A stretch of 64,000 nucleotides of DNA. Origin: an uncultured virus (IMG/VR IMGVR_UViG_3300020595_000014). Taxonomy: Duplodnaviria > Heunggongvirae > Uroviricota > Caudoviricetes. Shown here in pieces: positions 5,982-47,713 of this stretch. A program made the position numbers and the translations under genes. Location: the IMG/VR virus record IMGVR_UViG_3300020595_000014; one strand, given 5' to 3'. Numbering within the stretch: the first letter of the stretch is position 1; each line of letters opens with the position of its first letter. The notes below the pieces were generated by a model. The model was not told the origin of the DNA and ran no database searches. It saw only the letters and a list, made by a program, of their open reading frames with translations.

Positions 5982-5982
5982 A

Positions 5983-6525: not shown

Positions 6526-6575
6526 TATTAAATATTTTAGTATATATTCTCATAAATGCAATTGTAAATATCAAT

Positions 6576-8314: not shown

Positions 8315-9110
8315 ACTTTTTACATTCTTCTATATATCTGTCGTGCGTAAATTTTGTATTCCCGGAACCAGACCAAATTATAGAACCACTCTCTAAATCC
8401 TCGTCTTTATATTTTTTATCTATATTCTTTATACTTTTAGATAACTCTAAGAACTCAGTAATTATTCTCTCATCCACATCCCAGTCAAAAATTTCTGCAT
8501 TAACAACACTACAAGCCCATTTAATTATATCTCGTGTATCTTTATTATTATGGACACCTATTAATCCACCGTGATACAAAAAATCCTCATCAATAAGTCT
8601 TTTAGTATCTAATTGCTCGCTATATGGCTTATCTTTGAAAAAGCAAAAGTCATGTTTACTTAAATCAGCAAATAGTCTATATACTTCGCCTCTTACTATT
8701 GAGTCAACGTCAAGATAAATTACACTCCCTACCTGAAGTTTAAGCAGCCTCTTCAAGGTATCAAATTTTATATTTGAGCAATAAGCTATAAGCTCGCTAT
8801 AGAACAATCTCAGCGGTTTAATCGTAGTTTTATTTTTAAGAACAAGATCCTCTTTATCTACCGCGTACAGACCCTCTTTTGTTTTTAAATTACGTACCGT
8901 GGATAGTTCTGTTTTATCTGAAATAATACTAATGCTATCAAAACAAGCTAGATCTTCGTCTTCGCAATTGACAAATCTCCCAACAATTTCTACGTTTGGA
9001 GAATTTTTTTGAATTGAATTGACTAATATTTTTGCGAACGGTATGTAGTTTTTATCTGATGTAAAGGTAATTACATCTTTACCTACCAGGTCTCTGTACA
9101 ATTCTCGCAT
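8301..9110 (-). CDS. GT-A fold glycosyltransferase-like protein
   Basis: TSDKNY, YLDVDSIVR, GGLI, YKDE...IWSGSG. Confidence 0.7.
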   Translation of the reverse strand: MRELYRDLVGKDVITFTSDKNYIPFAKILVNSIQKNSPNVEIVGRFVNCEDEDLACFDSISIISDKTELSTVRNLKTKEGLYAVDKEDLVLKNKTTIKPLRLFYSELIAYCSNIKFDTLKRLLKLQVGSVIYLDVDSIVRGEVYRLFADLSKHDFCFFKDKPYSEQLDTKRLIDEDFLYHGGLIGVHNNKDTRDIIKWACSVVNAEIFDWDVDERIITEFLELSKSIKNIDKKYKDEDLESGSIIWSGSGNTKFTHDRYIEECKKYGDL

Positions 9111-10027
9111 ATACCTGTATATTTATCTTGCTTATGCTCAGTAACAACTCTCTTCCAACCGTCACTATTATATATTTCCTCTAAGGACTGTTTAAAAAGA
9201 TTACCAACAACACCGGTATTATTAAGATCATTAAACGGGCAGAATAGAAAATCACCATTAGGTAAAACACCTCCACCTACACCTGGTCCGAAGGGGCAAA
9301 TACCTGACCTAGGCCTCTTTTCCGTTTCGAAATCCTTTAAATTATCTCCTCTATTATGGTTGTATATATCCTCTTGATTTATTTTAACGTTCTTTAACTT
9401 ATTAAGTCGTAAAAGCTTAATATAGAGATCGTTCTTAGGAAATTCAGTTAAGTGTCGACCACATCTTATGTTTATTTCAACTAAAAAATCAACACCTTCA
9501 TTTAGGGTATCAAATAAGGTATTAAATTTTTCTTCAAACACCTTAAAGTTATCTTTATTGGTATTTGCGCTAAAAGACTCGCTATCGTACCCGTATAATG
9601 ATACCGTTAAAATAAGTTTTTTTAAGTTCTTAAGTAATTCGAAATGCTTAGGCTGAAGTATTGTTAAGTTAGTCGTTACGAGATAATGATCAATCTCTTT
9701 TTTTGATTCTAAATATTTTAGCTTTTTATCAAACTCCTTATCTAAAAAAGGCTCACCAATCGCCGGTGTTAACTCAATATACTTTATACCATAATCAGCA
9801 AATTTATTAACAAATATCTCGAAATTAGTTTGCGTCATTGTCTTTACCCTTGATAATTCCTTTATATTAGGTATAGATCCTCTACAAAAACAGCAATTCA
9901 GGTTACAATTAAAAATAGTCTGCATATTAACCATCTTACCAAATTTCTCATTAAGAGTGTGGGGTTTAAATGCACCCTCATCTACTTCTCTATCATGGTT
10001 ATTTAAAAAATTATCTAGATATCTCAT
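9083..10027 (-). CDS. Radical SAM protein with SPASM/twitch domain
   Basis: CNLNCCFC (CxxxCxxC), GEPFL, TN, C-terminal CPF...FC...GNL...CENC. Confidence 0.88.
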   Translation of the reverse strand: MRYLDNFLNNHDREVDEGAFKPHTLNEKFGKMVNMQTIFNCNLNCCFCRGSIPNIKELSRVKTMTQTNFEIFVNKFADYGIKYIELTPAIGEPFLDKEFDKKLKYLESKKEIDHYLVTTNLTILQPKHFELLKNLKKLILTVSLYGYDSESFSANTNKDNFKVFEEKFNTLFDTLNEGVDFLVEINIRCGRHLTEFPKNDLYIKLLRLNKLKNVKINQEDIYNHNRGDNLKDFETEKRPRSGICPFGPGVGGGVLPNGDFLFCPFNDLNNTGVVGNLFKQSLEEIYNSDGWKRVVTEHKQDKYTGICENCTETW

Positions 10028-10694
10028 TATGTATTGCTTTCCAAATCTTATTATAGGAGCAGTTCTTATGTTGGTTCAACCACGGACCACCATCAGTATA
10101 ATGGAGGGCTTTGGGTTTGAAGCTCTCTGTCTCCGTATAGTAATCAACTAGCCAGTTCCACTCCACAGGTATTGAGCCAATTTCACTATCTTGAAGCCAT
10201 TCGAATCTATGCAAGTGTGCACCTGTATATGTATTTAAAAATATAGGACATAATGCATCGTTTGCTAGATATGAATTGTTAAAAATAATTAAACTACTCC
10301 AATTCTTCCTCGGGTACTTAGATTGTAATTTACCTCCCATCTTAACGTCGCCTTTAGGTTCGTAATCTTTATGCTTACAACACATTACAGCATATCGATC
10401 ATCATATAGATCAATAAGATTATCTATGGACTCCAAGAAGACGAAATCGCTATCCACAAATATACTTACCCCTGTTCGGTTGCTTTCCCATGGAGTCCAG
10501 AAACGAGCGAACGAGAATTGAGTAGATTCTGTTTCATTCCTAGCTCTGTAATAGTCTGAAACAGTATTATAATTAATAGGTTTAATATTAAGCTCATACT
10601 TCTTATTACCTTTTAATATGCTTTCACGACATACATCATATGCTTCGGGATGCGCTTCATCTAACCCGATAAAAATATTAATGCACTCTTTCAT
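10011..10694 (-). CDS. Phage-type glycosyltransferase (GT8-like)
   Basis: STQFSFARF, FVDSDF, YPRKNWSS, WNWLV, LHYTDGGPW. Confidence 0.85.
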   Translation of the reverse strand: MKECINIFIGLDEAHPEAYDVCRESILKGNKKYELNIKPINYNTVSDYYRARNETESTQFSFARFWTPWESNRTGVSIFVDSDFVFLESIDNLIDLYDDRYAVMCCKHKDYEPKGDVKMGGKLQSKYPRKNWSSLIIFNNSYLANDALCPIFLNTYTGAHLHRFEWLQDSEIGSIPVEWNWLVDYYTETESFKPKALHYTDGGPWLNQHKNCSYNKIWKAIHNEISR

Positions 10695-11535
10695 GATATT
10701 CGGTATACACCTCTATTGATTCAGCTCCTCTTAATAATCCACCAACAGAGCAGTTCTTACATGGATCGCAATGCGATCTACTACACATCAGCTTATCTCT
10801 ATGAGCATTCAACTCATCACCAAACCAAATTTTATCAAAACTTACTTCGTTTATATTGCCATATATTTTACTTCTCTTCCAATCATTATTACATAACAAT
10901 ACATCGCCATTCCAATCAATCATGGCTTTATAAAATGGAATATGGCACGGTGTATCGAAATAAGCTGTGGCATCGCCTTTTAGTAATTCTGACCTATTAA
11001 CTATATTCAGATTATAATTATTACTCTTATCGTAGTGATGTCTGAATATGAAATTAATAGGTATATCCTCCTTCATCGCTGTTAGTCTATCAGTTATATC
11101 CTCGTCGTACATACTTACTGCAATGTGAGAGCAACCTGCTGTATGAAGGTTCTCTAAGGTCTCTCTATCTAATAAATCGCCGTTCGTATTAATCTCTAGC
11201 CACTTTAGACCAGGTAGTATATCTCTAGTGACTCGGATACATTCGTATATATCTTCATGTAATAAAGGCTCACCAAAACCAACGAACCCTACTCTATTAT
11301 TAAAATTAATATCTCTTAAGCTGTTACATAGACTCTTAACTGTATCTACACTTATATGGTTATTAGTGTTTGGATATAGTTTAGAATCATGTCTAGGGCA
11401 AAATGAGCACCGCCGGTTACATAGCTCAGTTGGGTTAATCTCAACAGCACGTAGCATAGAGTATATATTACTAGCTTTATCTATATTAGATTGAGCATCC
11501 CTATGATCAGATATATTTAACCCATCCGTAGACAT
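10678..11535 (-). CDS. Radical SAM protein with SPASM domain
   Basis: CNRRCSFCPR, GFGEPLL, NTNG, CHIPF...LLCNNDW...CDPCKNC. Confidence 0.9.
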   Translation of the reverse strand: MSTDGLNISDHRDAQSNIDKASNIYSMLRAVEINPTELCNRRCSFCPRHDSKLYPNTNNHISVDTVKSLCNSLRDINFNNRVGFVGFGEPLLHEDIYECIRVTRDILPGLKWLEINTNGDLLDRETLENLHTAGCSHIAVSMYDEDITDRLTAMKEDIPINFIFRHHYDKSNNYNLNIVNRSELLKGDATAYFDTPCHIPFYKAMIDWNGDVLLCNNDWKRSKIYGNINEVSFDKIWFGDELNAHRDKLMCSRSHCDPCKNCSVGGLLRGAESIEVYTEYHERVH

Positions 11536-20329: not shown

Positions 20330-20887
20330 TTATTTAATTAGAAGAAACTTAGTTGATAGTCTATTAAAGTACTCTTCATTAAGCCAAGTTAATCCGTATT
20401 TTTTAGTGTATTGCTTAATTTTACTAAAAGTAAATCGTGTATTATCATGATCTGCAGTACTTCTTACCTCATTTAGTAGTAAATAACCTTTACCTTGGTT
20501 AGATTCGAGTAGATGATGGAAGTAATCCAGACTATATCTACTAATGTATACTTTTACTGGTAGCATAACCTTAACTTTCCTAAGGACGCTGCATATAGAC
20601 TTAATAATATCACTTTCATTGTGAAATTTAGCTAACGAAACATCATTTAGCTGTGTATTATTAAAGAATAGAATATTTTTCTTGTTAGACTTACTCTTTA
20701 GGATAGCTTCACATAAATGGAGTATAGTGTAATGTAGGAATAGGCGTCTTACAGTAGTATTATTCAGAGATTTCTGAAGTAAATCAAACTTGTATAAGTC
20801 ATCTACAATACTATCACTAGCCTTTTTAAAAACCTCATTACAGTTAATAAGGTTTATATTGTATATTCCTAGATCTACATTATTCAT
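20330..20887 (-). CDS. Hypothetical protein
   Basis: 185-aa ORF with TATAAT 7 nt upstream of ATG. Confidence 0.6.
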   Translation of the reverse strand: MNNVDLGIYNINLINCNEVFKKASDSIVDDLYKFDLLQKSLNNTTVRRLFLHYTILHLCEAILKSKSNKKNILFFNNTQLNDVSLAKFHNESDIIKSICSVLRKVKVMLPVKVYISRYSLDYFHHLLESNQGKGYLLLNEVRSTADHDNTRFTFSKIKQYTKKYGLTWLNEEYFNRLSTKFLLIK

Positions 20888-21314
20888 TAACCTTATTATA
20901 ATACTGTTCCTTTAGAGCTTTAGGTGGTCTACCTATTCTACAGTTTATAATACCATTATAATAATCTTCACTTAATAGAACATCACGTTCAAATTGCATC
21001 TTAGATTCAAAATAACTTAGTTCAAATTTACTACCACAAAATCTTAAAATTTGGAATGTAAAAGTCTCCTTACCAAGCTCTTCAATATCAGCATTAAGTC
21101 TATCTGAAGAGCCTGTATAGGACTTCCAATCACTCTCTACAAAATCAATTCGTTTACGCTTCTTACCTTTGAGTGGTGCTCGTTTAATACGCTTTACCAT
21201 CTGTTTTTTACCTATATACTTCCTTTGATTTACTGTATTAGTAATTTCATATATAAAACCGAAAGCATCCGCAGGTATCGTGCCATGTATTGTCCAGTGA
21301 CCTGTTTCCATCAC
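20880..21314 (-). CDS. GIY-YIG-like nuclease-domain protein
   Basis: FGFIYEITN...KYIGKK...ESDWKSYTGSS...E...YYN. Confidence 0.75.
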   Translation of the reverse strand: MMETGHWTIHGTIPADAFGFIYEITNTVNQRKYIGKKQMVKRIKRAPLKGKKRKRIDFVESDWKSYTGSSDRLNADIEELGKETFTFQILRFCGSKFELSYFESKMQFERDVLLSEDYYNGIINCRIGRPPKALKEQYYNKVNE

Positions 21315-32718: not shown

Positions 32719-33837
32719 ATGAGTAAAGAAATTGACGATATTTTATCTGTAATTGATAAGTCTAATCCTTACGCGTCCTTCTTAAATGAGAGCGCTATTA
32801 GCAACGTAGACGGTTGGATCGATACTGGTTCTATGGTACTTAACGGTATTGTATCAGGTTCACTCCACGGCGGTATTCCAAAGAATAGAATGACCCTACT
32901 AGCTGGTCCGAGTATGACCGGTAAATCGTTTATTCTGCAAAAGATTCTAGCTAATGCTCAAAAGGAAGGTTTAATTCCAGTTATCTTTGATAGTGAGAAC
33001 GCTATCGATAGGGATGGTGCTGAAGCGTTAGGTCTAGATGTTAGTAAGGTGAAGTATGTACCAGTCTTTAGTATTGAAGAATGCCGCAACACGATTTTCG
33101 ACTTCTTAACTAAAGTAAAGGAGAAGGGTCAGGAAGGTAAATTTATAATCGCTATTGACTCTCTAGGTAATATGGAAAGTCAATTGCAGATCAATCGTCA
33201 GACAAAGGGTAATGTAAGTGCTGATATGGGTAGTAGAGCTAAAGCAATGAAGTCGCTATTACGTACACTTACTCAACTATCCGGCTTAACTAAAACTACT
33301 ATTCTTGCCACTAACCACATTTATGAAGACCCATCAGCAATGTTTCCGTCGCTTGTAAAAGCAATGCCAGGTGGTACTGCTACTGTATATCTACCTTCTG
33401 TTACTATACAGCTAGCTCGTAAACCGGTTAAGGAAGACAAGAACACTGACGGCAAATTAGCTGTAGGTCAAAAGAGCTACTCTGGTGTTATTCTACGAGC
33501 ACTGACCGTTAAGAATCGTTTCGTTAAGCAGTACTTGCAAGGTGAGATGTACCTGTCATTTGATCGTGGCCTGCACAAGTACTTTGGCTTATTGGATCTC
33601 GCGGTAGGTCTTGGAGCAGTTATACAGACTGGCGCAACATATCAATTACCAGATGGTAAGAAACTCGGCTATTATAGTAAGTGGAAAGATGATACTGAAC
33701 TATGGGATAAGACTATTATACCGGTTGTAGAAGAGAAGATTAAGAAAGAATGGAAGTACAGTAATAAAGATGTAGGTGATACAGATGAGATTATTCCAGA
33801 CGAAGTAACTGAGGATGCTGTGATAGCAGTTGAGTAG
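32719..33837 (+). CDS. uvsX: UvsX/RecA-like recombinase
   Basis: IDTGS, AGPSMTGKS, FDSENA, IDSLG, ADMGSRAK, KNRF. Confidence 0.92.
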   Translation: MSKEIDDILSVIDKSNPYASFLNESAISNVDGWIDTGSMVLNGIVSGSLHGGIPKNRMTLLAGPSMTGKSFILQKILANAQKEGLIPVIFDSENAIDRDGAEALGLDVSKVKYVPVFSIEECRNTIFDFLTKVKEKGQEGKFIIAIDSLGNMESQLQINRQTKGNVSADMGSRAKAMKSLLRTLTQLSGLTKTTILATNHIYEDPSAMFPSLVKAMPGGTATVYLPSVTIQLARKPVKEDKNTDGKLAVGQKSYSGVILRALTVKNRFVKQYLQGEMYLSFDRGLHKYFGLLDLAVGLGAVIQTGATYQLPDGKKLGYYSKWKDDTELWDKTIIPVVEEKIKKEWKYSNKDVGDTDEIIPDEVTEDAVIAVE

Positions 33838-33858: not shown

Positions 33859-34599
33859 ATGAAAAGAAAAATTGTTGTAACTCTCAGTGGTGGGATGGAT
33901 TCTGCTGTACTGTTGTTTAAAGCTGCGAGGCTAGCTGATGAAGTACATACTATTAGCTTTGATTATGGGCAGCGTCATAAACGAGAACTAGAGTGCGTTG
34001 AAAAGCAGCTAGCTGATATTAAGAACTTATACCCAGATAAAGTATTTCATAATAAATTACTTGATACAACTTTTATACGTGAGATGGCGCCAGTATCGTC
34101 ACTCACTAATGATAGTATTGATACCCCGAATGTAAATGATATGATGGGTGAAGCTCAACCTAAGAGTTATGTACCATTCCGTAATTTAATGTTCTTGAGT
34201 ATGCTTTGCTCTTATGCTGAGGCTGTAGGTGCCGGTGAGGTATGGTACGGGGCCGCGCAAGCAGATAGTTTAGCCGGTTACTGGGATGGATCTGAAGAGT
34301 TTGTAAATCAGTTAAATGACGTAACAGCACTTAATAGAGAGAATAGAATTACAGTAGTTGCTCCTCTTATTGAAATGTCTAAAAAAGATATCGTCTTAGA
34401 CGGCGTCTCCCTTGGGGTAAACTTTAGTAATACATATACCTGCTATTCAGGCGAGTACCCTTGTGACGTTGAGTCTGCTAGCAGCAGCTTAAGGCTACAA
34501 GGCTTCGTTGAAGCTAAGCTGAGGGACCCTTTAGATTATATACAGCAGGATAAGTTAGACGCTATATATGAGAAGAATGGTTGTAAGTCTATCAACTAA
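33859..34599 (+). CDS. queC: 7-cyano-7-deazaguanine synthase QueC-like
   Basis: LSGGMDS, FDYGQRH..E, SSLT, YVPFRN, TYTCY. Confidence 0.9.
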   Translation: MKRKIVVTLSGGMDSAVLLFKAARLADEVHTISFDYGQRHKRELECVEKQLADIKNLYPDKVFHNKLLDTTFIREMAPVSSLTNDSIDTPNVNDMMGEAQPKSYVPFRNLMFLSMLCSYAEAVGAGEVWYGAAQADSLAGYWDGSEEFVNQLNDVTALNRENRITVVAPLIEMSKKDIVLDGVSLGVNFSNTYTCYSGEYPCDVESASSSLRLQGFVEAKLRDPLDYIQQDKLDAIYEKNGCKSIN

Positions 34600-34868
34600 T
34601 CTTTTTTACCCCACGATAGCTTACCAATAAGTCTAACTGAGATATAAAACAACGTAGCTATAACTTCCCAGAATATAGAGCTCTTTGCCTGTCTTATCAT
34701 ATGAAGTAAAAATCTAGTATCTGCCTCTTCTCTACTAAACCTCGTAGTATCATAATCTAGATCATGTACTTTACAACTAGCGTTAAACCTAGTACTTAAA
34801 ATCCTACGAACCCATTTCGGCGTCCACCACGCACCGCAATAGTATTTATTTTTCTCGTACTCACTCAT
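34596..34868 (-). CDS. Small protein with phospholipase A2-like motif
   Basis: YCG...CKVHDLDY...ADTRF; hydrophobic C-terminal helix. Confidence 0.5.
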   Translation of the reverse strand: MSEYEKNKYYCGAWWTPKWVRRILSTRFNASCKVHDLDYDTTRFSREEADTRFLLHMIRQAKSSIFWEVIATLFYISVRLIGKLSWGKKD

Positions 34869-35233
34869 TCCCCGTATGGGACAGCTAAGCCCTCGCTAAT
34901 TAAATGTTGATTAACATTTAGAAATCCACTCTCTTGAGTTTCGTCTGGTATAAACACCTCTACCAGCCACCTACCATACTTACCGTACTTGTCCTTTATA
35001 GTGGTAATTATAATTTCTTTATCTGATAATAAATCTCTCATGTAATCCCTCGCAGCTATACCAGATTCACGCTCCTCACCCCTCACTTCCGGTGTATCTA
35101 TTCCGAGTAATCGAACGCGCTGGTTTTGCATAACGACTTTGAATCCGAGATCAATATCCAATCTCAAGGAATCACCATCATATATGGATACTACTTTTGC
35201 CTTATAAGTGTATAGTGTATTTGCTATTAACAT
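34865..35233 (-). CDS. Thermonuclease (SNase)-family nuclease
   Basis: IYDGDS, IDLGF, VRLLGIDTPE, GKYGRWL, N..LI.EGLA..Y. Confidence 0.88.
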   Translation of the reverse strand: MLIANTLYTYKAKVVSIYDGDSLRLDIDLGFKVVMQNQRVRLLGIDTPEVRGEERESGIAARDYMRDLLSDKEIIITTIKDKYGKYGRWLVEVFIPDETQESGFLNVNQHLISEGLAVPYGE

Positions 35234-35243
35234 GTGTTATGAA

Positions 35244-36881
35244 TTAATATCCTTGAGTATGCAGTCTTTGTTGAGCGTAAAGGTTTTGAACTCTTTCTCT
35301 CTCTCGGTTAGCGAGCATTTGGTTAATCTCTTGTTGAGACATTCTCGCTTCTTCAGACTCTTCACGTTTTTCGACAGGGGCCTTGGACATATATTGAGCA
35401 GTTGATTGCTCTTGATCTTCACCACCTTCTCTTTTTCTAAAGTATAGCTTCTGTGACGGGCTAAAGAACCATTCACTAGCATCAAAGTCTGCCATTCCTC
35501 GAGCTTTTTCATACTGCTCTGGGGAAAGATGGTATTCATCTTTAATGCTCTTCTGCTCTTCATCCGAGGTACCATATCTTGCATTATCAGCACAATCCGG
35601 ACACATGCCACAATCACACCCATTTTCGGCATCTTCACATGCAGCGTGCTTATCTTTAGCAGCTTTCTTCATCGACTCTTCTTTGTCACCATCGCCGTCC
35701 ATATCCATATAGTCCGGCTTTGCCTCTGCATCTTCATCAAACTTTGATTGTACAGTGAAGTGATTAACGAGTGACTTAGTGATACTAGCTCTTTCTTGAT
35801 CACCCTGTCTGCTATATTGGTCATGAAGCTCTTTAGCTGACTGAAGCATACCAGCTGCTTTATGAGCAAACTCACCAGCACCTTGTTTAACAGCGTTAAG
35901 TACTTCTTGCTTTACACTGACACCTTCAGCGTCTTCTTCTGTGTCGTAAACGGGTGCATAAGATGTATCATAATCAACTACCTTTCTCTTCTTCTTCATA
36001 CCAGGAAATTTACCAGCCCTCATCGCATGCAAGTCCTCTAAATATTCCGGAATATCTTCATCTGAATGACGACTTGTATCAAAATCATCAAGCTCTTCGT
36101 CTTCCTTACTAGCCATTTCCCTTTCAAGAACTGCGATCATATCACGTAAGTATGCTTCGGCGAGATGGTACTCTTCGAACTGGTGCATGTAATCTAAAAA
36201 CTGCTTGAACTTATCAATGCTGTCTACTTTTGCGCCAGTGTCAGCGATATTGACAAGCACCTTAGGGTCAAGCTCGTCAAGCTCTTGGAGTTGAGCAAGT
36301 ACCTTAGTGAATGCTACTTTCAGTAGAAGCTTCTCATCCCCAATATCAGGATCTACTCCTTTTTCAACTGGAGCCTTTTCAATTGCATCCATTGTTGTGT
36401 TTTTGATCTCCTCAGCTGATAAGTTGCTATATTCCTTTGTCTTATAACCTTCATGTTTTTTAGGCCGAACGTTTTTGCCAGTTCTAAGTATCATCGCGAT
36501 TCTAAGAAACTCTGATACTCTATCCTCATCTGGATTTTCGTCATCCTTGCCGGTGGCGTATGCTTCGAATTCGTTTGCAAACGTATCGAGCATTTCTGGG
36601 CGATCAATTGCAATCTGACCTACCATTGCATTAACATCTTTTGCTGATGGTTTTCTTTTTGAATCTTTAAATTCAGCTGGAATAACTTCAGGGTGCTGAT
36701 CTTGAAGGTAATTGAAGAAAAATAAGCGAGCATCACGGTATGGTACACCTATGTTTAGTTTCTTCATTTTATTAACTACTGGCTTCAGTGTCTTAGCAAT
36801 ACTTTCCTCTAGAAGCTCTTCAGCAAAGTAATGTTCACTGCTCTCATTAATTACTCGGTTTGTCCATGTAGCGAAATTCAT
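35244..36881 (-). CDS. Large acidic modular late protein, putative head-internal
   Basis: VINES N-terminus, repeated EDAE linkers, AKPDYMDMDGDGDKEESMKKA module, late motif 5 nt upstream. Confidence 0.6.
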   Translation of the reverse strand: MNFATWTNRVINESSEHYFAEELLEESIAKTLKPVVNKMKKLNIGVPYRDARLFFFNYLQDQHPEVIPAEFKDSKRKPSAKDVNAMVGQIAIDRPEMLDTFANEFEAYATGKDDENPDEDRVSEFLRIAMILRTGKNVRPKKHEGYKTKEYSNLSAEEIKNTTMDAIEKAPVEKGVDPDIGDEKLLLKVAFTKVLAQLQELDELDPKVLVNIADTGAKVDSIDKFKQFLDYMHQFEEYHLAEAYLRDMIAVLEREMASKEDEELDDFDTSRHSDEDIPEYLEDLHAMRAGKFPGMKKKRKVVDYDTSYAPVYDTEEDAEGVSVKQEVLNAVKQGAGEFAHKAAGMLQSAKELHDQYSRQGDQERASITKSLVNHFTVQSKFDEDAEAKPDYMDMDGDGDKEESMKKAAKDKHAACEDAENGCDCGMCPDCADNARYGTSDEEQKSIKDEYHLSPEQYEKARGMADFDASEWFFSPSQKLYFRKREGGEDQEQSTAQYMSKAPVEKREESEEARMSQQEINQMLANRERERVQNLYAQQRLHTQGY

Positions 36882-36927
36882 AATAATATTTATGGATTCT
36901 ACACTGGTTTTATACTATAATAAGAGT

Positions 36928-37608
36928 ATGTGCGGAATATATTGTAGTGATGATAGTAATACCTTCGAGGTGTTAGAGGAAGCTAACCAATCTAGAGGCA
37001 ACTTTGCTACTGGATTATTGTATGCATCTGTTAAAGGTGATAAGGCACATTACGGCATTATACGTAAAGAAGGTTCTTTCTGTATGGAAGATATGGGTGT
37101 ACCTGCAGATTGTAAATTATTCCTAGGGCATAACCAAGCTCCTACTAGCAGTCAGAGGTATTTCCAAGACGATACATCACACCCATTCGAGGTAGGTGAC
37201 TGGGTAGTAGCTCATAACGGGGTATTGACTAACTTTAAGGAGTTACAACAAGAATGTAGAGCTGTACCTCATAATCCGGTAGATAGTTATATTATACCAT
37301 ACCTTCTAGCCGAGAATGATTATAAAGATGGCCCGTGTGAAAGTGTAATAGAAGGTGAAATTAATAATATTACAAGAGTGCTGCAACGACTTGAGGGTAC
37401 CTATGCTGTTTGGATGTATAATACCTGGAGTAATAACTTATATGTAGCTAGACAGGGTAGTACTTTATTCTATAAAGGAACACATGTATCATCTATTAAG
37501 GGCAATGGTTATATAGAGGTAGCGGAAGGTACCATATACAAATATACCCCCACTGGGTACGAGATAGTATCCACATTCAATCATAAATCACCGTTCTTAA
37601 CACTATGA
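36928..37608 (+). CDS. Class II (Ntn) glutamine amidotransferase domain protein
   Basis: MCGIY start (Cys2), RG, GHNQAPT, HPF, AHNGVLTN, VDS; TATAAT 6 nt upstream. Confidence 0.85.
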   Translation: MCGIYCSDDSNTFEVLEEANQSRGNFATGLLYASVKGDKAHYGIIRKEGSFCMEDMGVPADCKLFLGHNQAPTSSQRYFQDDTSHPFEVGDWVVAHNGVLTNFKELQQECRAVPHNPVDSYIIPYLLAENDYKDGPCESVIEGEINNITRVLQRLEGTYAVWMYNTWSNNLYVARQGSTLFYKGTHVSSIKGNGYIEVAEGTIYKYTPTGYEIVSTFNHKSPFLTL

Positions 37609-38126
37609 GACATATAGCACTATTTTCACAAACTGGTTCAGAGATAGCGAGCCTGGTAGAACGAGGAGTTAATCCATCCTCTATATTTTTTGATCAGAAA
37701 GATGATACTAAGATTGACCGTAGACTTAATATTAGTGATGTAGGTCATCGAATTGCAAAGAGGCACGTTAAGGATGTTCAGTACTTGAGAGATTGCTTTG
37801 GTGACCCATCCACATGCTTTATTACGTTACATGGATGGCTTAATATTATACCTAAGGAGATATGCGAGGAGTATAAAATTTATAACGGCCATCCCGGACT
37901 AATAACATCCTATCCACAACTTAAAGGTAAAGATCCGCAAGTACGTGCCTTTGAGGGCTGCTACTCTACTATAGGCTCAGTTATTCATCACGTTACACCC
38001 GGTGTTGATGAAGGTAAGGTAGTGTTGTCACATGGTGTAAAAAATGAATGTGCCTCATTAGATGAAATGTTTACTACACTTAAGGACATATCACTTAATC
38101 TATGGCTTGATTTCTTTACTAAGTGA
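37605..38126 (+). CDS. PurN-like formyltransferase (candidate DpdN-type)
   Basis: ALFSQTGSE, LHGWL.I, YNGHPGL, GSVIH.V..GVDEG. Confidence 0.8.
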   Translation: MRHIALFSQTGSEIASLVERGVNPSSIFFDQKDDTKIDRRLNISDVGHRIAKRHVKDVQYLRDCFGDPSTCFITLHGWLNIIPKEICEEYKIYNGHPGLITSYPQLKGKDPQVRAFEGCYSTIGSVIHHVTPGVDEGKVVLSHGVKNECASLDEMFTTLKDISLNLWLDFFTK

Positions 38127-38135
38127 TATTATAAT
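38107..38135 (+). promoter_or_regulatory. Sigma70-like promoter
   Basis: TTGATT-N17-TATAAT, 6 nt before ATG 38142. Confidence 0.7.
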
Positions 38136-38141
38136 TTCTAT

Positions 38142-38480
38142 ATGGATGATCTGAAAACAACTGGGAAGCCTCGTCAGTTTGAAACTGGCGCACAACGTGA
38201 TAACTGTGAAGGTAAGGTACGTATGAGTTTAGTACCACACAAAGCCTTAGAATCGGTTATGGTGAGATACTTGCAAGGTGCTGAGGCCTATGGAGAAAAT
38301 AACTGGCGGAGAGGTATGAAGCATTCTGTACTATATGACAGTGCAATGAGACATCTAATGCAAGACTTCAGAGGTGATGAGAGTGAAGACCACCTAGGGG
38401 CGGTATTGTGGAATGTAATGGGTATGATTTGGAATAGAGATAACAAACCAGAACTGGATGATCGCAAAGATTATGAATAA
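38142..38480 (+). CDS. DUF5664-like dATP/dGTP diphosphohydrolase domain protein
   Basis: FETGAQRD, GK.R.SLVP, GA..YGENNWRRG, SAMRHL, EDHLGAVLWN. Confidence 0.8.
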   Translation: MDDLKTTGKPRQFETGAQRDNCEGKVRMSLVPHKALESVMVRYLQGAEAYGENNWRRGMKHSVLYDSAMRHLMQDFRGDESEDHLGAVLWNVMGMIWNRDNKPELDDRKDYE

Positions 38481-39141
38481 TATTAAAATTTATAGCGCGA
38501 CTAAAGGCAATAAGGAGGACTGCGTACTCTATAAATGTTTAGAGAGTTACGGGCTAGATCACCTAGGAGTTTCAGTACAATACGAGGATAAAAATACTAA
38601 AAGCCTTCAACAGTGTTACAATAATTTTATTGACGATGCACGGAAAAACAATATTGATATTGCAGTTATGGTACATGATGACGTACATATTAATACCCGT
38701 GATTTATACTCTCTTATATCTAAAGCTGCAGATCAATACACCGTATTCGGGCTCGCCGGTGCTACTTCTTGTAAAGTTGGTAGCCCTGCTTTATGGCATA
38801 TTATGTCAAAAAGGGAAGATCAAAGAGGGTGTGTAGCTCATGGAGATAAAGATTCATATATGTATACCTCCTTCGGACCTGTACCGAGCAGATGTTTAGT
38901 TATTGACGGAGTCTTTATTGGCATCAATATTAAAGAGTTACCTGAAAATGTGAGATTTGACGAATCTTATCCATCTAAGTTTCATTATTATGATTTAGAC
39001 TTCTCACTTGAATGTAATAGGAACCACGTTACAATAGGCGTAGTGGATATACCGATCATTCACAGTAGCCCAGGACTAACTAAACCTGATAAAGAATTTT
39101 ACGACGGCGAGACATACTTTATTAAGAAGTGGCGAAAGTAG
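38473..39141 (+). CDS. GT2-like glycosyltransferase
   Basis: YN, MVHDDV, GLAGA, IDGVFI, FDE, FHYYDLDFS, HSSPG. Confidence 0.78.
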   Translation: MNNIKIYSATKGNKEDCVLYKCLESYGLDHLGVSVQYEDKNTKSLQQCYNNFIDDARKNNIDIAVMVHDDVHINTRDLYSLISKAADQYTVFGLAGATSCKVGSPALWHIMSKREDQRGCVAHGDKDSYMYTSFGPVPSRCLVIDGVFIGINIKELPENVRFDESYPSKFHYYDLDFSLECNRNHVTIGVVDIPIIHSSPGLTKPDKEFYDGETYFIKKWRK

Positions 39142-39157
39142 TACAACATAAAATATA

Positions 39158-40474
39158 ATGGAAAAAATTGATTTAGATTATTTTGAGAAGGTTTTAATAT
39201 ATAAAAGCTTAACTGATGAGCAGTACCTTGCGGAGATCATCGGTCATGTAGACCCTAAAATTATTGCCGATAAGAATATTAAGGTACTCTTTACCATCAT
39301 TAAGAGCTTTTATGATAAGAGAGGTGTGCCTCCGACTCTCACTGAACTAAAGACATATCTAGTCAATGATGATGTTAAAGCTGCTCTTAAGACTGTTGCT
39401 GGTAGTTTCGATGAAATAGATAAGAATCTTAATAAAGATGAGTTATTAGATAATACTGAAAGATACCTTAAGGAAAGAGCTATCTACCATACAATGATGG
39501 ATGTAGCTGAAGACATTACTAACGGTAAGGTTGATACTAGTTATATTCTCGAGAAGTTTGAAAAGAGCTGTAGTATCGAGTTGAAGGACGACCTTGGTAT
39601 TGATCTATTCGGTGATATTGATGAGGTGGCCCGTGAGTTGAGTGTAGATGAACCGACGCTATCTTCTGGATGGGACTGGCTTGACGAAAACTTAAATGGT
39701 GGCTTCTTAGCGAATGGAAGAGCGTTTTATGTATTCGCGGGCCAGACGAACGTTGGTAAGAGTATTTTCCTAGGTAATATTGCGACCAATCTAGCTAGAA
39801 AAGGTAAGAACGTATTAGTACTATCTCTTGAGATGAGTGAAATTATGTATGCTTGTCGACTTGCATCCGATATTACTAAAATACCTATTGCAGATCTTAG
39901 ATCTCAAACACCTACGTTAAAGCATAGTATGGATAGCATGGAAGGTATGGGTAAACTTATTATCAAAGAGTTTCCTCCTAATACTATTACTGCTCAGCAG
40001 ATTGCCTCCTATGTCAAGACCGTTCAATTAAAAGGTATTCAGATTGACGCTATTGTACTGGATTACATTAACCTGTTGAGAGGTTCACTTAACAGTAATC
40101 TATATGAGCGTATTAAGTGTGCTACTGAAGAAGTGAGAGCGTTGAGTTATAAATTCAACTGCCCTATTATTAGTGCTACTCAGCTTAACCGTACAGGTTA
40201 CGATACAGAGTCACCGACTCTTGATACTATTGGTGAGAGTATTGGCTTAGCCGCTACAGCTGATGTTATTGTTGGTATTACTCAGAGTGATACAGATAAA
40301 GAACTTAATATCATTAACCTGCATATGATGAAGAATCGTTTCGGTGCTAACTTCGGTAGGAATGAAATGAGAATTGATTATGGTACTCTTACCGTATCAG
40401 AGGATGATACTCTCAATAACGACGATGGTGACTTTGGCGAGATGACAGATAAGCTCGATAGGATGAGCCTATAG
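39158..40474 (+). CDS. gp41-like DnaB replicative helicase
   Basis: AGQTNVGKS, SLEMSE, IIKEFP, LDYINL, SATQLNR, ESIGLAATAD, KNRFG. Confidence 0.93.
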   Translation: MEKIDLDYFEKVLIYKSLTDEQYLAEIIGHVDPKIIADKNIKVLFTIIKSFYDKRGVPPTLTELKTYLVNDDVKAALKTVAGSFDEIDKNLNKDELLDNTERYLKERAIYHTMMDVAEDITNGKVDTSYILEKFEKSCSIELKDDLGIDLFGDIDEVARELSVDEPTLSSGWDWLDENLNGGFLANGRAFYVFAGQTNVGKSIFLGNIATNLARKGKNVLVLSLEMSEIMYACRLASDITKIPIADLRSQTPTLKHSMDSMEGMGKLIIKEFPPNTITAQQIASYVKTVQLKGIQIDAIVLDYINLLRGSLNSNLYERIKCATEEVRALSYKFNCPIISATQLNRTGYDTESPTLDTIGESIGLAATADVIVGITQSDTDKELNIINLHMMKNRFGANFGRNEMRIDYGTLTVSEDDTLNNDDGDFGEMTDKLDRMSL

Positions 40475-45354: not shown

Positions 45355-46221
45355 ATGAATATACTCGTACTATCAAAAGGCTTTATTGCCTCTCGCTTGA
45401 CTGAATACTTGATTCGCGAGAAGCATACAGTATACAACTTCTCTAGAGAAGAGCTAGACTACGGCGATAAAAGTCGCTTTTTTAATTTTTTAGATAAGAC
45501 AGCTATTGATGCTGTTGTTAATTGTGCAGGGTTCACCGGTAAGCCTAATGTTGATGAATGTGAGGTTCGAAAAGAAGAATGCTTTATTCAGAATTCAATT
45601 CTACCTCGAGATATTGAAGAGGTTTGCAAGATTAAAAGAGTGAACCTAATTCATGTTAGTTCTGGCTGCATTTACACCGGGTATGATAAAGAGTATACTG
45701 AAGATGATGAACCTAACTTCGGAATGTTTGATAGTGATTCTAGTTTTTATAGTAAGACAAAGCATGCCGGTGAACTTAACCTCGATACCAACTTTACTAA
45801 CATCATTAGAATTAGAATGCCAATTGAAGGTACTCTAGATTCAAAAAACCTGTTACATAAACTAAAAGGCTATAGTAAGCTGATTGATTATAGGAACAGT
45901 AAGACAGATGTAACAGTTCTGTGTGAGTTTATTGAGACTGTTATCGATGATTTTGAACCTGGTATATTTAATGCGGTTCATAGTAACGCACTCACTACAA
46001 AAGAAGTAATAGAGATATCTAAAGAATATCCACTCACAGTTAACCCAGAGTGGGAGTTTGTGGATTTTGAAGACTTAAACACGAAGTGTGGTAGAAGTAA
46101 TTGCGTCTTGAGTAACGATAAGAGTAAACTAGTATTTGATTTTGATTGGGGTGATGAAGAGTATTACATTCGAAAAAGCTTTCAGGCGATGACAGAGATA
46201 TTGCAAGAAGAAGAGAAATAA
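45355..46221 (+). CDS. NDP-4-keto-6-deoxyglucose 3,5-epimerase/4-reductase-like SDR
   Basis: AGFTGKPNVDECE, SSGCIY, PNF, SFYSKTK, RIRMP. Confidence 0.78.
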   Translation: MNILVLSKGFIASRLTEYLIREKHTVYNFSREELDYGDKSRFFNFLDKTAIDAVVNCAGFTGKPNVDECEVRKEECFIQNSILPRDIEEVCKIKRVNLIHVSSGCIYTGYDKEYTEDDEPNFGMFDSDSSFYSKTKHAGELNLDTNFTNIIRIRMPIEGTLDSKNLLHKLKGYSKLIDYRNSKTDVTVLCEFIETVIDDFEPGIFNAVHSNALTTKEVIEISKEYPLTVNPEWEFVDFEDLNTKCGRSNCVLSNDKSKLVFDFDWGDEEYYIRKSFQAMTEILQEEEK

Positions 46222-46233
46222 GCATAAAAAAAT

Positions 46234-46755
46234 ATGGATAATTACCAATTACAACGACTTATCGACCAGCATAAAAGTGAGGTATATAAGCGTATCAAAA
46301 AATACAAACCGACCGGTGACATTACAGCCTTTACAGCTGGTAACTTTGATATAATTCACCCGGGTTATACTGCAACGTTTGAAGAAGCTAAGCGACATTG
46401 TGATAAGTTTATTGTCTTCCTACACGGCGACCCTTCTGCTACTCGTAATACAAAGTATAAGCCTGTCGTACCGTATTACGATCGTTATAAAATGCTTATG
46501 TCTATTAAGCATATTGATGAGGTATATATGTACCAGACGGAAGAAGAATTATACGAGCTAATGAAGACATTCGATTGCGATGTTCGTATATTAGGTGAAG
46601 ATTATTTAGGTAAAGATTTTACAGGTAGCGAGCTCAGAGCAGAAGTTATATATACTACTCGGTCACATGAATGGTCTACTACAAAATTTAAAGACCTAAT
46701 TACAAAACAAACAATTAAGCAGAACCCAAATATTCGCGATGACGACGGCTATTAA
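46234..46755 (+). CDS. TagD/RfaE-like cytidylyltransferase
   Basis: TAGNFDIIHPGY, KP...R, IDEV, GEDY, RSHEWSTT. Confidence 0.85.
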   Translation: MDNYQLQRLIDQHKSEVYKRIKKYKPTGDITAFTAGNFDIIHPGYTATFEEAKRHCDKFIVFLHGDPSATRNTKYKPVVPYYDRYKMLMSIKHIDEVYMYQTEEELYELMKTFDCDVRILGEDYLGKDFTGSELRAEVIYTTRSHEWSTTKFKDLITKQTIKQNPNIRDDDGY

Positions 46756-47713
46756 TAGACCTAAAATACTTGTCACAGGAGGTTATGGGTTTATTGGTGG
46801 TAATTTTATACAATACCTACGTGAGACTTTTCAGCAGAGTGTATACATTGTTAATATTGACAAGAACGGTTACGCGTCAAACAAAGAGTATGCTAGCCCG
46901 TACTGTGATGAGACTTATGATATTGATATTACGGATGTACCGGCGCTTGAGATGCGATTCGATGAAGATGAGCCATATGATTATATCTTTCACTTTGCTG
47001 CTGAGTCTCATGTAGATAATAGCATTTCCGGACCTACTGTTTTTGTCGAATCGAATGTATTAGGTACTCAGAATCTTCTAGAATGTTACCGTGTCCGGAA
47101 TAAAGGTCATGGCAGATTCATTCATATATCTACTGATGAGGTGTATGGTCACTTAGATCTAACTGACCCTGCCTTCACTGAGGAGACCCCGTTATCCCCA
47201 CGCTCTCCCTATGCTGCTAGTAAGGCATCGAGTGACCTGATGTGTATATCATATATGAAGACGTATGGCTTAGACATTGGGATAACACGTTGTTGTAATA
47301 ACTTCGGACCTAATCAATATAAAGAGAAATTTATACCGACTATTATTGACTCCTTAAAGAATGGTAATAAGATTCCGGTATATGGTAAAGGTAATAACGT
47401 TCGGGAATGGATTCACGTTACATCTCATAATGAAGCCGTCTGGAACGTCGCTATTAAGGGTGATGCCGGGGTATACAATATTGGTAGTGGTGTAGAGTTA
47501 ACAAATTTAGAGCTTGTTAAGCTAGTCTGTGAGATTATGGGTAAAGAACCTGTCGATAATATAGAGTTCGTCGCGGATCGCCTGGGTCATGACTTTAGAT
47601 ACGCCATCGATTGCAGTAAGGCTAAGAAAATTGGCATGCAACAAGGCACATATAATGACTTTGTAGTTGAATTAACTGACTACATAGGTTATTATATTAG
47701 TAATGACCGATAA
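46739..47713 (+). CDS. rmlB: dTDP-glucose 4,6-dehydratase
   Basis: TGGYGFIG, HFAAESHVDNS, ISTDEVYG, SPYAASK, DRLGHDFRY. Confidence 0.92.
   Translation: MTTAINRPKILVTGGYGFIGGNFIQYLRETFQQSVYIVNIDKNGYASNKEYASPYCDETYDIDITDVPALEMRFDEDEPYDYIFHFAAESHVDNSISGPTVFVESNVLGTQNLLECYRVRNKGHGRFIHISTDEVYGHLDLTDPAFTEETPLSPRSPYAASKASSDLMCISYMKTYGLDIGITRCCNNFGPNQYKEKFIPTIIDSLKNGNKIPVYGKGNNVREWIHVTSHNEAVWNVAIKGDAGVYNIGSGVELTNLELVKLVCEIMGKEPVDNIEFVADRLGHDFRYAIDCSKAKKIGMQQGTYNDFVVELTDYIGYYISNDR

What the first reader, a model, noticed from the sequence alone, without database searches (positions are those of the whole stretch)
33859..39141. 7-deazaguanine-type DNA modification module with an unusual enzyme set
Seen: QueC, a class II amidotransferase, a PurN-like formyltransferase, a DUF5664-like dNTP diphosphohydrolase and a GT2-like gene between uvsX and the helicase. 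Known: phages use QueC to make preQ0; Gat-QueC is linked to archaeosine (G+); PurN paralogues (DpdN) have been tied to formylated preQ1 in phage DNA; dNTP pyrophosphatases remove the canonical nucleotide in base-substituting phages. Inference: a deazaguanine is amidinated/aminated, formylated and perhaps glycosylated, possibly incorporated at the dNTP level. No DpdA, FolE, QueD, QueE or QueF is visible in this window.
Basis: partly seen in the sequence, partly recalled or inferred. Interest (0 to 1): 0.82.

Follow-up and report, generated by a model that had tools for sequence, protein, structure and literature searches.

The report
Formyl-deazaguanine DNA genes in marine phage
This stretch is one arm of an already described kind of phage system that replaces guanine in the phage's DNA with a formylated 7-deazaguanine, here in an uncultured marine T4-like phage and with a few unreported helper genes; the neighbouring sugar transferase is probably not part of it.

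Summary
The five genes are real (Pfam). The PurN-like gene is an orthologue of DpdN, the proposed preQ1 formyltransferase of Flavobacterium phage immuto_2-6A (41.5% identity over 97%). FolE, QueD and a QueE-like gene sit 1.5-6.4 kb upstream on a contig 99.98% identical to the window. DpdA3, a kinase-like gene and QueF sit about 29 kb upstream, reached through overlaps of 99.99% and 99.94% identity. This is the gene set of the known fdPreQ1 system. The Ntn amidotransferase is present with QueC in 116 of 116 loci and absent with it in 5 of 5. It is also missing from a complete relative that lacks QueC, DpdA3 and DUF366, so it is probably a glutamine-hydrolysing helper. The GT-A glycosyltransferase stays in that relative, so glycosylation of the base is unlikely. 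The DUF5664 protein belongs to a family shown to hydrolyse dNTPs to dNMPs. Whether replacement happens in DNA or in the nucleotide pool stays open. The scan met this cassette before in at least seven other genomes.

The parts
33859..34599 (+). QueC-family PP-loop enzyme (CDG to preQ0), a variant without the CxxCxxC zinc motif
   Evidence: PF06508 E 2.2e-53 and TIGR00364 above its cut-off. SGGxDS, YxQxHxxE and VPxRN are present. The zinc motif is replaced by ...PCDVESASSSLR (motifs named in PMC13082051).
34596..34868 (-). 90-aa ORF, part of a variable insert, function unknown
   Evidence: phrog_6098 E 4.6e-13. Present in 3 of 60 related loci.
34865..35233 (-). Staphylococcal-nuclease-like endonuclease, part of the variable insert
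   Evidence: PF00565 E 9.8e-10 and phrog_452 E 8.8e-30. Present in 2 of 60 related loci.
35244..36881 (-). Acidic 545-aa ORF with no family, part of the variable insert
   Evidence: No Pfam, PHROG or NCBIfam hit. Homologues in 12 of 60 loci.
36928..37608 (+). Free-standing class II (Ntn) glutamine amidotransferase, likely the ammonia-donating helper of the deazaguanine pathway
   Evidence: GATase_6/7. Invariant Cys2, HNG and Asp119. Closest solved relatives are the GlmS and PurF glutaminase domains. It co-varies with QueC.
37605..38126 (+). DpdN orthologue (proposed preQ1/dPreQ1 N-formyltransferase)
   Evidence: 41.5% identity, 97% coverage, E 2e-32 to YP_010114479.1, which Cui et al. name DpdN. 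PurN-type N, H and D align. It fails the PurN equivalog cut-off, 36.4 against 150.1 bits.
38142..38480 (+). Stand-alone DUF5664 (PF18909) protein, likely a dNTP-to-dNMP pyrophosphohydrolase
   Evidence: PF18909 E 8.1e-20, 71.1 bits against a cut-off of 27 and phrog_18716 E 1.2e-27. A stand-alone DUF5664 enzyme hydrolyses dATP, dUTP and dGTP to dNMPs (PMC12884076 passages).
38458..39141 (+). GT-A-fold glycosyltransferase, conserved neighbour of the helicase gene, probably not part of the deazaguanine pathway
   Evidence: PF13712. AF2 model with pLDDT 93.3. Best Foldseek match is 2qgi/2nxv at E 3e-12, followed by GT-A transferases. Invariant HDD. It persists where the pathway is absent.
32719..33837 (+). 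UvsX recombinase (left flank of the slot)
   Evidence: PF00154 E 4.6e-17.
39158..40474 (+). DnaB-like replicative helicase (right flank of the slot)
   Evidence: PF03796 E 7.8e-25.

Best explanation
The segment is the QueC arm of a complete DpdA3-type 7-deazaguanine system of an uncultured marine T4-like myovirus, most likely yielding fdPreQ1 (7-formamidomethyl-7-deazaguanine) in place of G. The steps are as follows. FolE, QueD and a QueE-like enzyme, encoded just upstream of the window, turn GTP into CDG (genes shown, chemistry inferred from the families). QueC, a zinc-motif-less variant shared with the fdPreQ1 phage immuto, makes preQ0, with ammonia supplied by the free-standing Ntn glutaminase (inferred). 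A bimodular QueF reduces preQ0 to preQ1, and DpdA3, a compact TGT-fold protein, brings the base into DNA (genes shown about 29 kb upstream, activity inferred). DpdN formylates the aminomethyl group (inferred from orthology). The DUF5664 enzyme hydrolyses dGTP and/or dATP to the monophosphate, shaping the nucleotide pool (inferred from a characterised relative). The GT-A glycosyltransferase is a resident of the same genomic slot with another, unknown acceptor.
For: DpdN orthology rests on 41.5% identity over 97% (E 2e-32) to YP_010114479.1; the other 5 of 9 matching phage records had E of 1e-4 or weaker. The rest of the pathway is in the same genome. Contig L205/L212 is 99.98% identical to window 1-11170. 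It carries FolE (E 3.6e-47), QueD (E 2e-19) and a QueE-like Fer4_12 protein 1.5-6.4 kb beyond the window start. A 152-kb contig (L342) overlaps that contig at 99.99% over 10,124 bp and overlaps L312 at 99.94% over 9,541 bp. L312 carries DpdA3 (50.8% identity to immuto DpdA3, E 6e-77), an AAA_28/dNK-like kinase, and QueF_N+QueF (E 3.8e-33 and 2.2e-22). DpdA3 is present in 6 of 6 QueC-bearing relatives that are at least 72% complete. Its model matches TGT structures at E 5e-8. Its only cultured relatives are the published DpdA3 carriers. The amidotransferase goes with QueC: both are present in 60/60, 34/34 and 22/27 loci spanning UvsX to helicase, and both are absent in the other 5/27. It is absent from complete genome G021 while the control G006 scores 1e-99. 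Profile alignments place the amidotransferase and QueC on the N- and C-terminal halves of a phage Gat-QueC fusion (prob 97.4 and 99).
Against: No chemistry was measured. The link from the window to DpdA3 and QueF is a chain of near-identical overlaps, not one held record (could not open the 152-kb record). QueC lacks three of the four zinc ligands that a 2026 preprint calls a hallmark of canonical QueC, so it may not make preQ0 by itself. The amidotransferase is as close to GlmS and PurF (E 4e-11 to 4e-8) as to Gat-QueC, so its pairing with QueC rests on co-variation only. DUF366 co-varies in the same way and could be its partner instead. DpdN occurs in only 6 of 61 and 13 of 54 related loci, so formylation is a subclade trait. 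DpdN itself is a prediction in the literature, not an assayed enzyme. The QueE-like assignment is weak (19% identity, E 1e-5).
Confidence: 0.7

Rival explanations
1. Replacement takes place in the nucleotide pool and not after replication. DUF5664 makes dGMP from dGTP. The base is exchanged on, or attached to, a (deoxy)nucleotide by DpdA3 or by the small phosphoribosyltransferase. The kinase-like protein next to DpdA3 re-phosphorylates the product, and the phage polymerase incorporates it.
For: A DUF5664 dNTP-to-dNMP hydrolase sits in the module. A kinase-like gene directly follows DpdA3 in 36 of 40 loci of this clade (AAA_28 E 2.6e-15 and dNK E 1.3e-4). The same adjacency holds in immuto and in CP220, where an HD-plus-P-loop protein also precedes DpdA3. 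A small PRTase is found in immuto, G003, G006 and G015. Cui et al. report 100% replacement in all three tested DpdA3 phages, free ADG nucleoside in infected cells, and failure to reconstitute DpdA3 in E. coli. DmtZ, which swaps the base on dAMP, gives a precedent for nucleotide-level exchange in Z-genome phages.
Against: Every assayed DpdA acts on DNA, and Cui et al. conclude that all known deazaguanine DNA modifications are post-replicative. DUF5664 is missing from most of the clade (10 of 61 in set A). The characterised DUF5664 prefers dATP tenfold over dGTP. No assay here touches the question.
Confidence: 0.2
2. The amidotransferase and QueC together act like Gat-QueC and make the archaeosine base (G+), so the DNA carries dG+.
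For: Both proteins align to the two halves of a phage Gat-QueC fusion (phrog_10428 is hit by both). Gat-QueC is linked to G+ in phage 9g and in Crenarchaeota.
Against: QueF (nitrile reductase type, QueF_N+QueF) follows DpdA3 in 34 of 40 loci, and DpdN needs an amine. The genes are not fused: 2.3 kb and three opposite-strand ORFs separate them. There is no closer similarity to Gat-QueC than to GlmS.
Confidence: 0.08
3. The GT-A enzyme glycosylates the deazaguanine, giving a sugar-bearing base.
For: The gene sits in the same operon. In relatives its start overlaps the end of the amidotransferase gene, and it is present in 121 of 121 loci spanning UvsX to helicase. Only 1 of 5 long relatives has a ThyA-family enzyme that could make hmC or hmU as another acceptor.
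Against: It stays in place in 5 loci without QueC or the amidotransferase, and in complete genome G021, which lacks the pathway and has a Mom gene in the slot. The closest cellular homologues (51% and 35% identity) are a TPR fusion and a gene in a rhamnose/GT41 cluster.
Confidence: 0.06
4. The genes are ordinary auxiliary metabolic genes (purine synthesis with purN- and purF-like genes, or queuosine supply for tRNA) and do not modify DNA.
For: T4-like marine phages often carry purine genes (recalled). The formyltransferase weakly hits a cyanophage purN PHROG (E 8e-7).
Against: The PurN equivalog score is far below its cut-off, 36.4 against 150.1. DpdN is the best relative. DpdA3 is in the genome chain, and the set co-varies as a unit.
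Confidence: 0.03

Closest known systems
[quoted passage not shown] 2023, PMC10516641; sections 4, 17-19 and 21 read)
   Same: The same seven gene families are present. DpdN is 41.5% identical, DpdA3 about 51% and QueF about 46%. A kinase-like gene lies between DpdA3 and QueF in both. A small PRTase is found in immuto and in relatives of the window's phage (G003, G006, G015), though it was not located in the window's own chain. Both have the QueC variant without the zinc motif.
   Different: The phage backbone differs: T4-like with PolB here, PolA in immuto. DpdN sits in the QueC/replisome operon and not beside DpdA3 (0 of 40 DpdA3 loci have it). The free-standing Ntn amidotransferase, DUF366 and DUF5664 gave no match in immuto (no immuto hit for the GT either).
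Gat-QueC (class II amidotransferase fused to QueC; phage 9g, Providencia phage PSTCR4, Crenarchaeota)
   Same: The same two domain types occur in the same pathway, and both halves align to the fusion.
   Different: Here there are two genes 2.3 kb apart. There is no specific sequence kinship beyond the class. The QueC part has lost the zinc motif, which the fusion keeps. QueF is present, so G+ is not the expected product.
Campylobacter phage CP220 group (T4-like, DpdA3, dADG)
   Same: T4-like phages with DpdA3 (about 45% identity) followed by a kinase-like gene.
   Different: CP220 has QueC* with an intact CxxCxxC motif and stops at the amide. A tblastn with the window's amidotransferase found no CP220 hit. 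QueF and DpdN were not searched for in CP220 here.
Nucleotide-pool enzymes of Z-genome phages (DUF5664, DUF550/MazZ, DatZ, DmtZ; PMC12884076, passages read)
   Same: A stand-alone DUF5664 protein sits in a phage that replaces a purine.
   Different: The replaced base is G and not A. The substrate preference of this copy is unknown, and it is absent from most relatives.

Membership tests
DpdA3/DpdN fdPreQ1 system (Cui et al. 2023) | DpdN: short PurN-superfamily formyltransferase co-encoded with the pathway | tested here: met
   41.5% identity over 97% to YP_010114479.1. N, H and D align to PurN.
DpdA3/DpdN fdPreQ1 system (Cui et al. 2023) | DpdA3 transglycosylase in the genome | tested here: met
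   Not in the window. Found on L312, linked by overlaps of 99.98%, 99.99% and 99.94% identity. It is 50.8% identical to immuto DpdA3 and has a TGT fold. The Pfam TGT model misses it (0 of 5 records).
DpdA3/DpdN fdPreQ1 system (Cui et al. 2023) | FolE, QueD and QueE (GTP to CDG) | tested here: met
   FolE E 3.6e-47 and QueD E 2e-19 on L212. QueE is weak only: Fer4_12 E 3.5e-5 and 19% identity to immuto QueE.
DpdA3/DpdN fdPreQ1 system (Cui et al. 2023) | QueF nitrile reductase (preQ0 to preQ1) | tested here: met
   L312:11362-12297 has QueF_N E 3.8e-33 plus QueF E 2.2e-22.
DpdA3/DpdN fdPreQ1 system (Cui et al. 2023) | fdPreQ1 replaces dG in virion DNA | not testable with these tools
   Needs LC-MS of DNA from an uncultured phage.
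Canonical QueC (PF06508 cluster 1; PMC13082051) | SGGxDS P-loop, YxQxHxxE and VPxRN motifs | tested here: met
   LSGGMDS, FDYGQRHKRE and YVPFRN are invariant in 24 clade sequences.
Canonical QueC (PF06508 cluster 1; PMC13082051) | C(x)8CxxCxxC zinc motif | tested here: not met
   Only the first Cys (with the following Tyr) is conserved, and CxxCxxC is replaced by Ser/Ala-rich sequence. The same loss is seen in immuto QueC.
Gat-QueC | Amidotransferase and QueC in one polypeptide | tested here: not met
   They are separate genes (36928-37608 and 33859-34599). A search for longer forms found one weak hit without a QueC domain.
Class II (Ntn) glutamine amidotransferase | N-terminal Cys nucleophile, Asn-Gly oxyanion hole, Asp for the glutamine amino group | tested here: met
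   C2, H96-N97-G98 and D119 are invariant. The Arg that binds the glutamine carboxylate in GlmS (position recalled) aligns to an invariant Gln, with an invariant Arg four residues later.
PurN (GAR transformylase) | Equivalog-level score and full-length match | tested here: not met
   TIGR00639 scores 36.4 bits against a cut-off of 150.1, and only residues 72-145 match.
DUF5664 / PF18909 dNTP diphosphohydrolase | Family-level match; dNTP-to-dNMP activity | tested here: inconclusive
   Pfam score of 71.1 bits against a cut-off of 27. Activity and substrate were not testable. No solved relative by sequence.
Glycosylated-base system (DNA glycosyltransferase tied to the modified base) | The transferase co-varies with the base-synthesis genes | tested here: not met
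   The GT is kept in 5 of 5 loci without QueC and in complete genome G021.

The most novel reading that the evidence does not exclude
DpdA3-type systems, this one included, may replace guanine before replication. A dGTP-to-dGMP hydrolase (here DUF5664; an HD protein in CP220) would feed the pathway. A compact TGT-fold enzyme or the small PRTase would act on a nucleotide and not on DNA. The dNK/AAA_28-like kinase that always follows DpdA3 would then re-phosphorylate the product. This would explain why only DpdA3 phages reach 100% replacement, and it would make deazaguanine DNA a second case, after Z-genomes, of purine replacement through the nucleotide pool.
Probability: 0.2. Interest if true: 0.85.

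Novelty: new variant of a known kind. Interest (0 to 1): 0.5.

Why it matters
It places the DpdA3/DpdN formyl-deazaguanine system, so far characterised in one Flavobacterium phage, in a large clade of uncultured aquatic T4-like phages: 227 QueC and at least 495 GT relatives were found in one viral collection. It also names three accessory genes that no paper I read ties to the pathway. These are a free-standing glutaminase and DUF366, which both co-vary with the pathway, and a DUF5664 dNTP hydrolase. Together with the kinase-like gene that always follows DpdA3, they give concrete, cheap enzyme assays for an open question: is complete guanine replacement made in DNA or in the nucleotide pool? 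The result also removes the more exciting idea of a glycosylated deazaguanine.

Tried and rejected

(2) The Pfam TGT model as a detector of DpdA found 0 of 6 records across two searches. This was misleading, because DpdA3 is invisible to that model. I replaced it with protein searches.

(3) A megablast and a blastn search of the module against cultured phages found nothing useful.

(4) A search for fused, longer forms of the amidotransferase gave one weak hit without a partner domain.

(5) I tried to open the 152-kb metagenome record to see DpdA3 and the window on one molecule. The record is not held, so I relied on the overlap chain.

(6) I considered the acidic 545-aa ORF as a hidden DpdA. 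It has no family and is low-complexity and acidic, and DpdA3 was found elsewhere, so I rejected this.

(7) I considered a WbpG-like sugar amidotransferase reading of QueC, given the many sugar genes. I rejected it because the QueC-specific motifs and the TIGR00364 score are met.

(8) I considered a split PurF (amidotransferase plus the small PRTase). The genes are not linked, and immuto has the PRTase without the amidotransferase, so I did not pursue it.

(9) Mom was found in only 1 of the 5 QueC-less loci, so swapping of modification modules in this slot rests on one case.

Full report
**What is in the window.** Pfam confirms the five genes of the finding.
- QueC, 33859-34599: E 2.2e-53. It also passes the NCBIfam QueC equivalog model, 156.7 bits against a cut-off of 150.3.
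- A class II amidotransferase, 36892-37608.
- A Formyl_trans_N protein, 37605-38126.
- A PF18909/DUF5664 protein, 38142-38480: E 8.1e-20.
- A Glyco_tranf_2_5 protein, 38458-39141.

They lie between UvsX and a DnaB-like helicase, in a replication block that also holds PolB, gp32, a primase and RNase H-like genes. The phage is a deeply branching T4-like myovirus. Its PolB is at most 32.5% identical to any cultured phage, and the module has no nucleotide match among cultured phages.

Two corrections apply.
- The amidotransferase should start at 36928 (MCGIY). Fifty-seven of 61 relatives start MC[AG]I, Cys2 is invariant, and an AAGAG lies just upstream.
- Three minus-strand ORFs interrupt the block: a 90-aa ORF, an SNase-like nuclease and an acidic 545-aa ORF without family. 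They are a variable insert, found in 3, 2 and 12 of 60 related loci.

**The formyltransferase is DpdN.** Against 50,697 phage records the 173-aa protein matched 9 records.
- The four Flavobacterium immuto records matched at 41.5% identity over 97% of its length (E 2e-32).
- The other five matched at E 1e-4 or worse.

The immuto protein hit is YP_010114479.1. Cui et al. 2023 name this very protein DpdN, the proposed preQ1/dPreQ1 formyltransferase of a phage whose dG is fully replaced by fdPreQ1 (PMC10516641, sections 18 and 19). The Asn, His and Asp that align with PurN structures are kept (the catalytic role of these three is recalled knowledge). The PurN equivalog model scores only 36.4 bits against 150.1, so this is not a purN copy.

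**The missing genes lie outside the window.** No FolE, QueD, QueE, QueF or DpdA is in the 64 kb. They were found as follows.
- A viral contig (L205, extended as L212) is 99.98% identical to window 1-11170 in reverse orientation and runs 18.5 kb further.
- Counted from the window start, it holds FolE at 1.5-2.2 kb (E 3.6e-47), QueD at 3.9-4.5 kb (E 2e-19), a QueE-like Fer4_12 protein at 5.6-6.4 kb, and DUF366 at 14.6-15.1 kb.
- A 41-base pattern from its end found a 152-kb contig. The fetched part of that contig overlaps L212 at 99.99% over 10,124 bp and overlaps contig L312 at 99.94% over 9,541 bp.
- L312 continues into three adjacent genes: DpdA3 (50.8% identical to immuto DpdA3, E 6e-77), an AAA_28/dNK-like kinase, and a bimodular QueF (QueF_N E 3.8e-33, QueF E 2.2e-22). 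DpdA3 lies about 28.9 kb upstream of window position 1.

The 152-kb record itself could not be opened, so this is a chain of overlaps and not one molecule seen whole.

Relatives agree with this picture.
- DpdA3 is present in all 6 QueC-bearing records that are at least 72% complete (G004, G005, G006, G007, G011, G014) and in four fragments.
- The Pfam TGT model finds none of them (0 of 5).
- The DpdA3 model (pLDDT 83.9) matches tRNA-guanine transglycosylases at E 5e-8.
- In cultured phages the protein hits exactly the published DpdA3 carriers: immuto at 52%, the Campylobacter CP220 group at 45% and Cellulophaga phiST at 26%.

The genome therefore has the full gene set of the known fdPreQ1 system.

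**What travels with what.** I examined three sets of related loci, which share some contigs (counts).

| Set | Loci spanning UvsX to helicase | QueC | Amidotransferase | GT |
|---|---|---|---|---|
| A | 60 | 60 | 60 | 60 |
| B | 34 | 34 | 34 | 34 |
| C | 27 | 22 | 22 | 27 |

- In the third set, QueC and the amidotransferase are always both present or both absent.
- One of the five loci without them belongs to G021, a complete 197.7-kb genome with terminal repeats.
- G021 lacks DpdA3, QueC, the amidotransferase (control G006 at 1e-99) and DUF366 (control G006 at 1e-20). It keeps the GT next to the helicase.
- In G021 the slot holds a Mom-family gene instead (E 3.4e-55).
- DpdN occurs in 6 of 61 and 13 of 54 loci that cover the amidotransferase-to-GT interval, and DUF5664 in 10 of 61 and 40 of 54. 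Both are subclade additions inserted between the amidotransferase and the GT.

**The amidotransferase.** It has the Ntn set: Cys2, His-Asn-Gly at 96-98, Asp119, and an invariant C-terminal SPF.
- Its nearest solved relatives are the glutaminase domains of GlmS/GFAT (E 4e-11) and PurF (about 1e-8). Asparagine synthetase is far (7e-3).
- The amidotransferase and QueC profiles align to the N- and C-terminal halves of the Gat-QueC fusion of Providencia phage PSTCR4 (prob 97.4 and 99), and one PHROG is hit by both.
- This similarity is no closer than the similarity to GlmS, so a split Gat-QueC is an analogy supported by co-variation, not by specific descent.
- A split PP-loop enzyme plus separate GATase subunit has a precedent in archaeal GMP synthases (PMC13082051 passages).
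- Because QueF and DpdN both need the nitrile-to-amine route, ammonia supply to QueC is a better reading than archaeosine synthesis.
- DUF366 co-varies equally and could be the true partner. Earlier notes of this scan place it in the same operon in other genomes.
- Co-folding was not available.

**QueC is not canonical.** It keeps SGGxDS, YxQxHxxE and VPxRN but lacks the CxxCxxC part of the zinc motif. A 2026 preprint treats that motif as a hallmark of a zinc-dependent enzyme (passages read). The same loss occurs in immuto QueC, while CP220 QueC* keeps the cysteines. Since immuto DNA is fully fdPreQ1, this variant is at least compatible with the pathway.

**The glycosyltransferase.**
- The model is confident (pLDDT 93.3).
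- It matches the UDP-binding protein Majastridin (E 3e-12, TM 0.68) and then GT-A transferases. An HDD triplet is invariant.
- It has no homologue in cultured phages.
- Its cellular homologues are a Prochlorococcus TPR fusion (51% identity) in a glycan island and a Neiella gene (35%) in a rhamnose/GT41 cluster.

Together with its persistence in G021, this makes a glycosylated deazaguanine unlikely. The acceptor is unknown. A ThyA-family enzyme, which could provide hmC or hmU, is found in only 1 of 5 long relatives.

**DUF5664 and the route of incorporation.** A stand-alone DUF5664 enzyme of Arthrobacter phage Wayne converts dATP, dUTP and dGTP to dNMPs, with a tenfold preference for dATP. The same paper describes an enzyme that swaps the base on dAMP (PMC12884076 passages).
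- A kinase-like gene follows DpdA3 in 36 of 40 loci here, in immuto and in CP220.
- The main text of Cui et al. has no occurrence of 'kinase' or 'phosphoribosyl'. Its supplements were not read.
- Cui et al. argue for post-replicative insertion, but they could not reconstitute DpdA3, and they note 100% replacement only for DpdA3 phages.

The pool-level route is therefore a live minority reading (about 0.2).

**Comparison and verdict.** This is a member of the DpdA3/DpdN kind of system in a new, large lineage. It has unreported accessories (a free-standing glutaminase, DUF366, DUF5664) and a relocated DpdN. Literature searches for DpdA3, for deazaguanine/DpdA since 2023 and for QueC with glutamine amidotransferase in phages listed no paper on these accessories. 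I read only the passages named above. The scan has met the same cassette in at least seven other genomes. The lead that the GT survives without the pathway came from those notes, and it held when I tested it here.

Noticed in passing
window 1-20300 and 45355-47713; L212:10495-14556: The phage carries a very large set of sugar genes. These include at least five GT8/GT-sug/GT-like genes, RmlD-like, DegT aminotransferase, PIG-L deacetylase, two dehydratase/epimerases, two radical SAM-SPASM proteins, a class I/II aminotransferase and two cytidylyltransferase-like genes. Four more glycosyltransferases lie just beyond the window start. The target (virion, host surface or DNA) is unknown.
   Followed up: no
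L089:3897-4442 (G006, complete 184.5-kb relative): A GNAT acetyltransferase sits between DpdA3 and the kinase-like gene, exactly where DpdN sits in immuto. This hints at an acetylated preQ1 in that relative. None of the other 40 DpdA3 loci has it.
   Followed up: partly
L298:4112-4753 (G021, complete 197.7-kb relative): A Mom-family DNA-modification gene (E 3.4e-55) occupies the UvsX-to-GT slot in the relative that lacks the deazaguanine genes. It is seen in only 1 of the 5 QueC-less loci.
   Followed up: partly
L212:15243-15830 (about 14.6 kb upstream of window start): DUF366 (PF04017, E 6.9e-23) is conserved across the clade: 98%, 82% and 61% identity in G015, G003 and G006. It is absent from G021, immuto and CP220, so it co-varies with the amidotransferase. 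Its only solved relative is the uncharacterised 2ddz.
   Followed up: partly
window 34420-34500 (C-terminal part of QueC) and L232 (immuto QueC): The QueC of this clade and of immuto lacks the CxxCxxC zinc ligands, which CP220 QueC* and the Gat-QueC fusion keep.
   Followed up: partly
L230:5865-8358 (Campylobacter phage CP220): DpdA3 is flanked by an HD-domain plus P-loop protein and a 'thymidylate kinase'. The kinase adjacency is the same as in immuto and this clade.
   Followed up: partly
L233:5356-6654 (Prochlorococcus single-cell assembly contig): The closest cellular homologue of the GT (51% identity) is fused to TPR repeats. It sits among chromosomal genes (FtsH, OTCase, LexA, RibD) next to a sulfotransferase and another GT. 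This is a possible hint at gene exchange with picocyanobacteria, not a host assignment.
   Followed up: no
window 20880-21314 (-): A SegE-like GIY-YIG homing endonuclease (E 1.2e-33) lies near the strand switch of the window.
   Followed up: no
L212:9160-9786: An Fe/Mn superoxide dismutase gene lies in the phage genome just upstream of the window.
   Followed up: no
window 34865-35233 (-): An SNase-like nuclease sits inside the module. In a phage with fully substituted G it could degrade unmodified host DNA. It is present in only 2 of 60 relatives.
   Followed up: no
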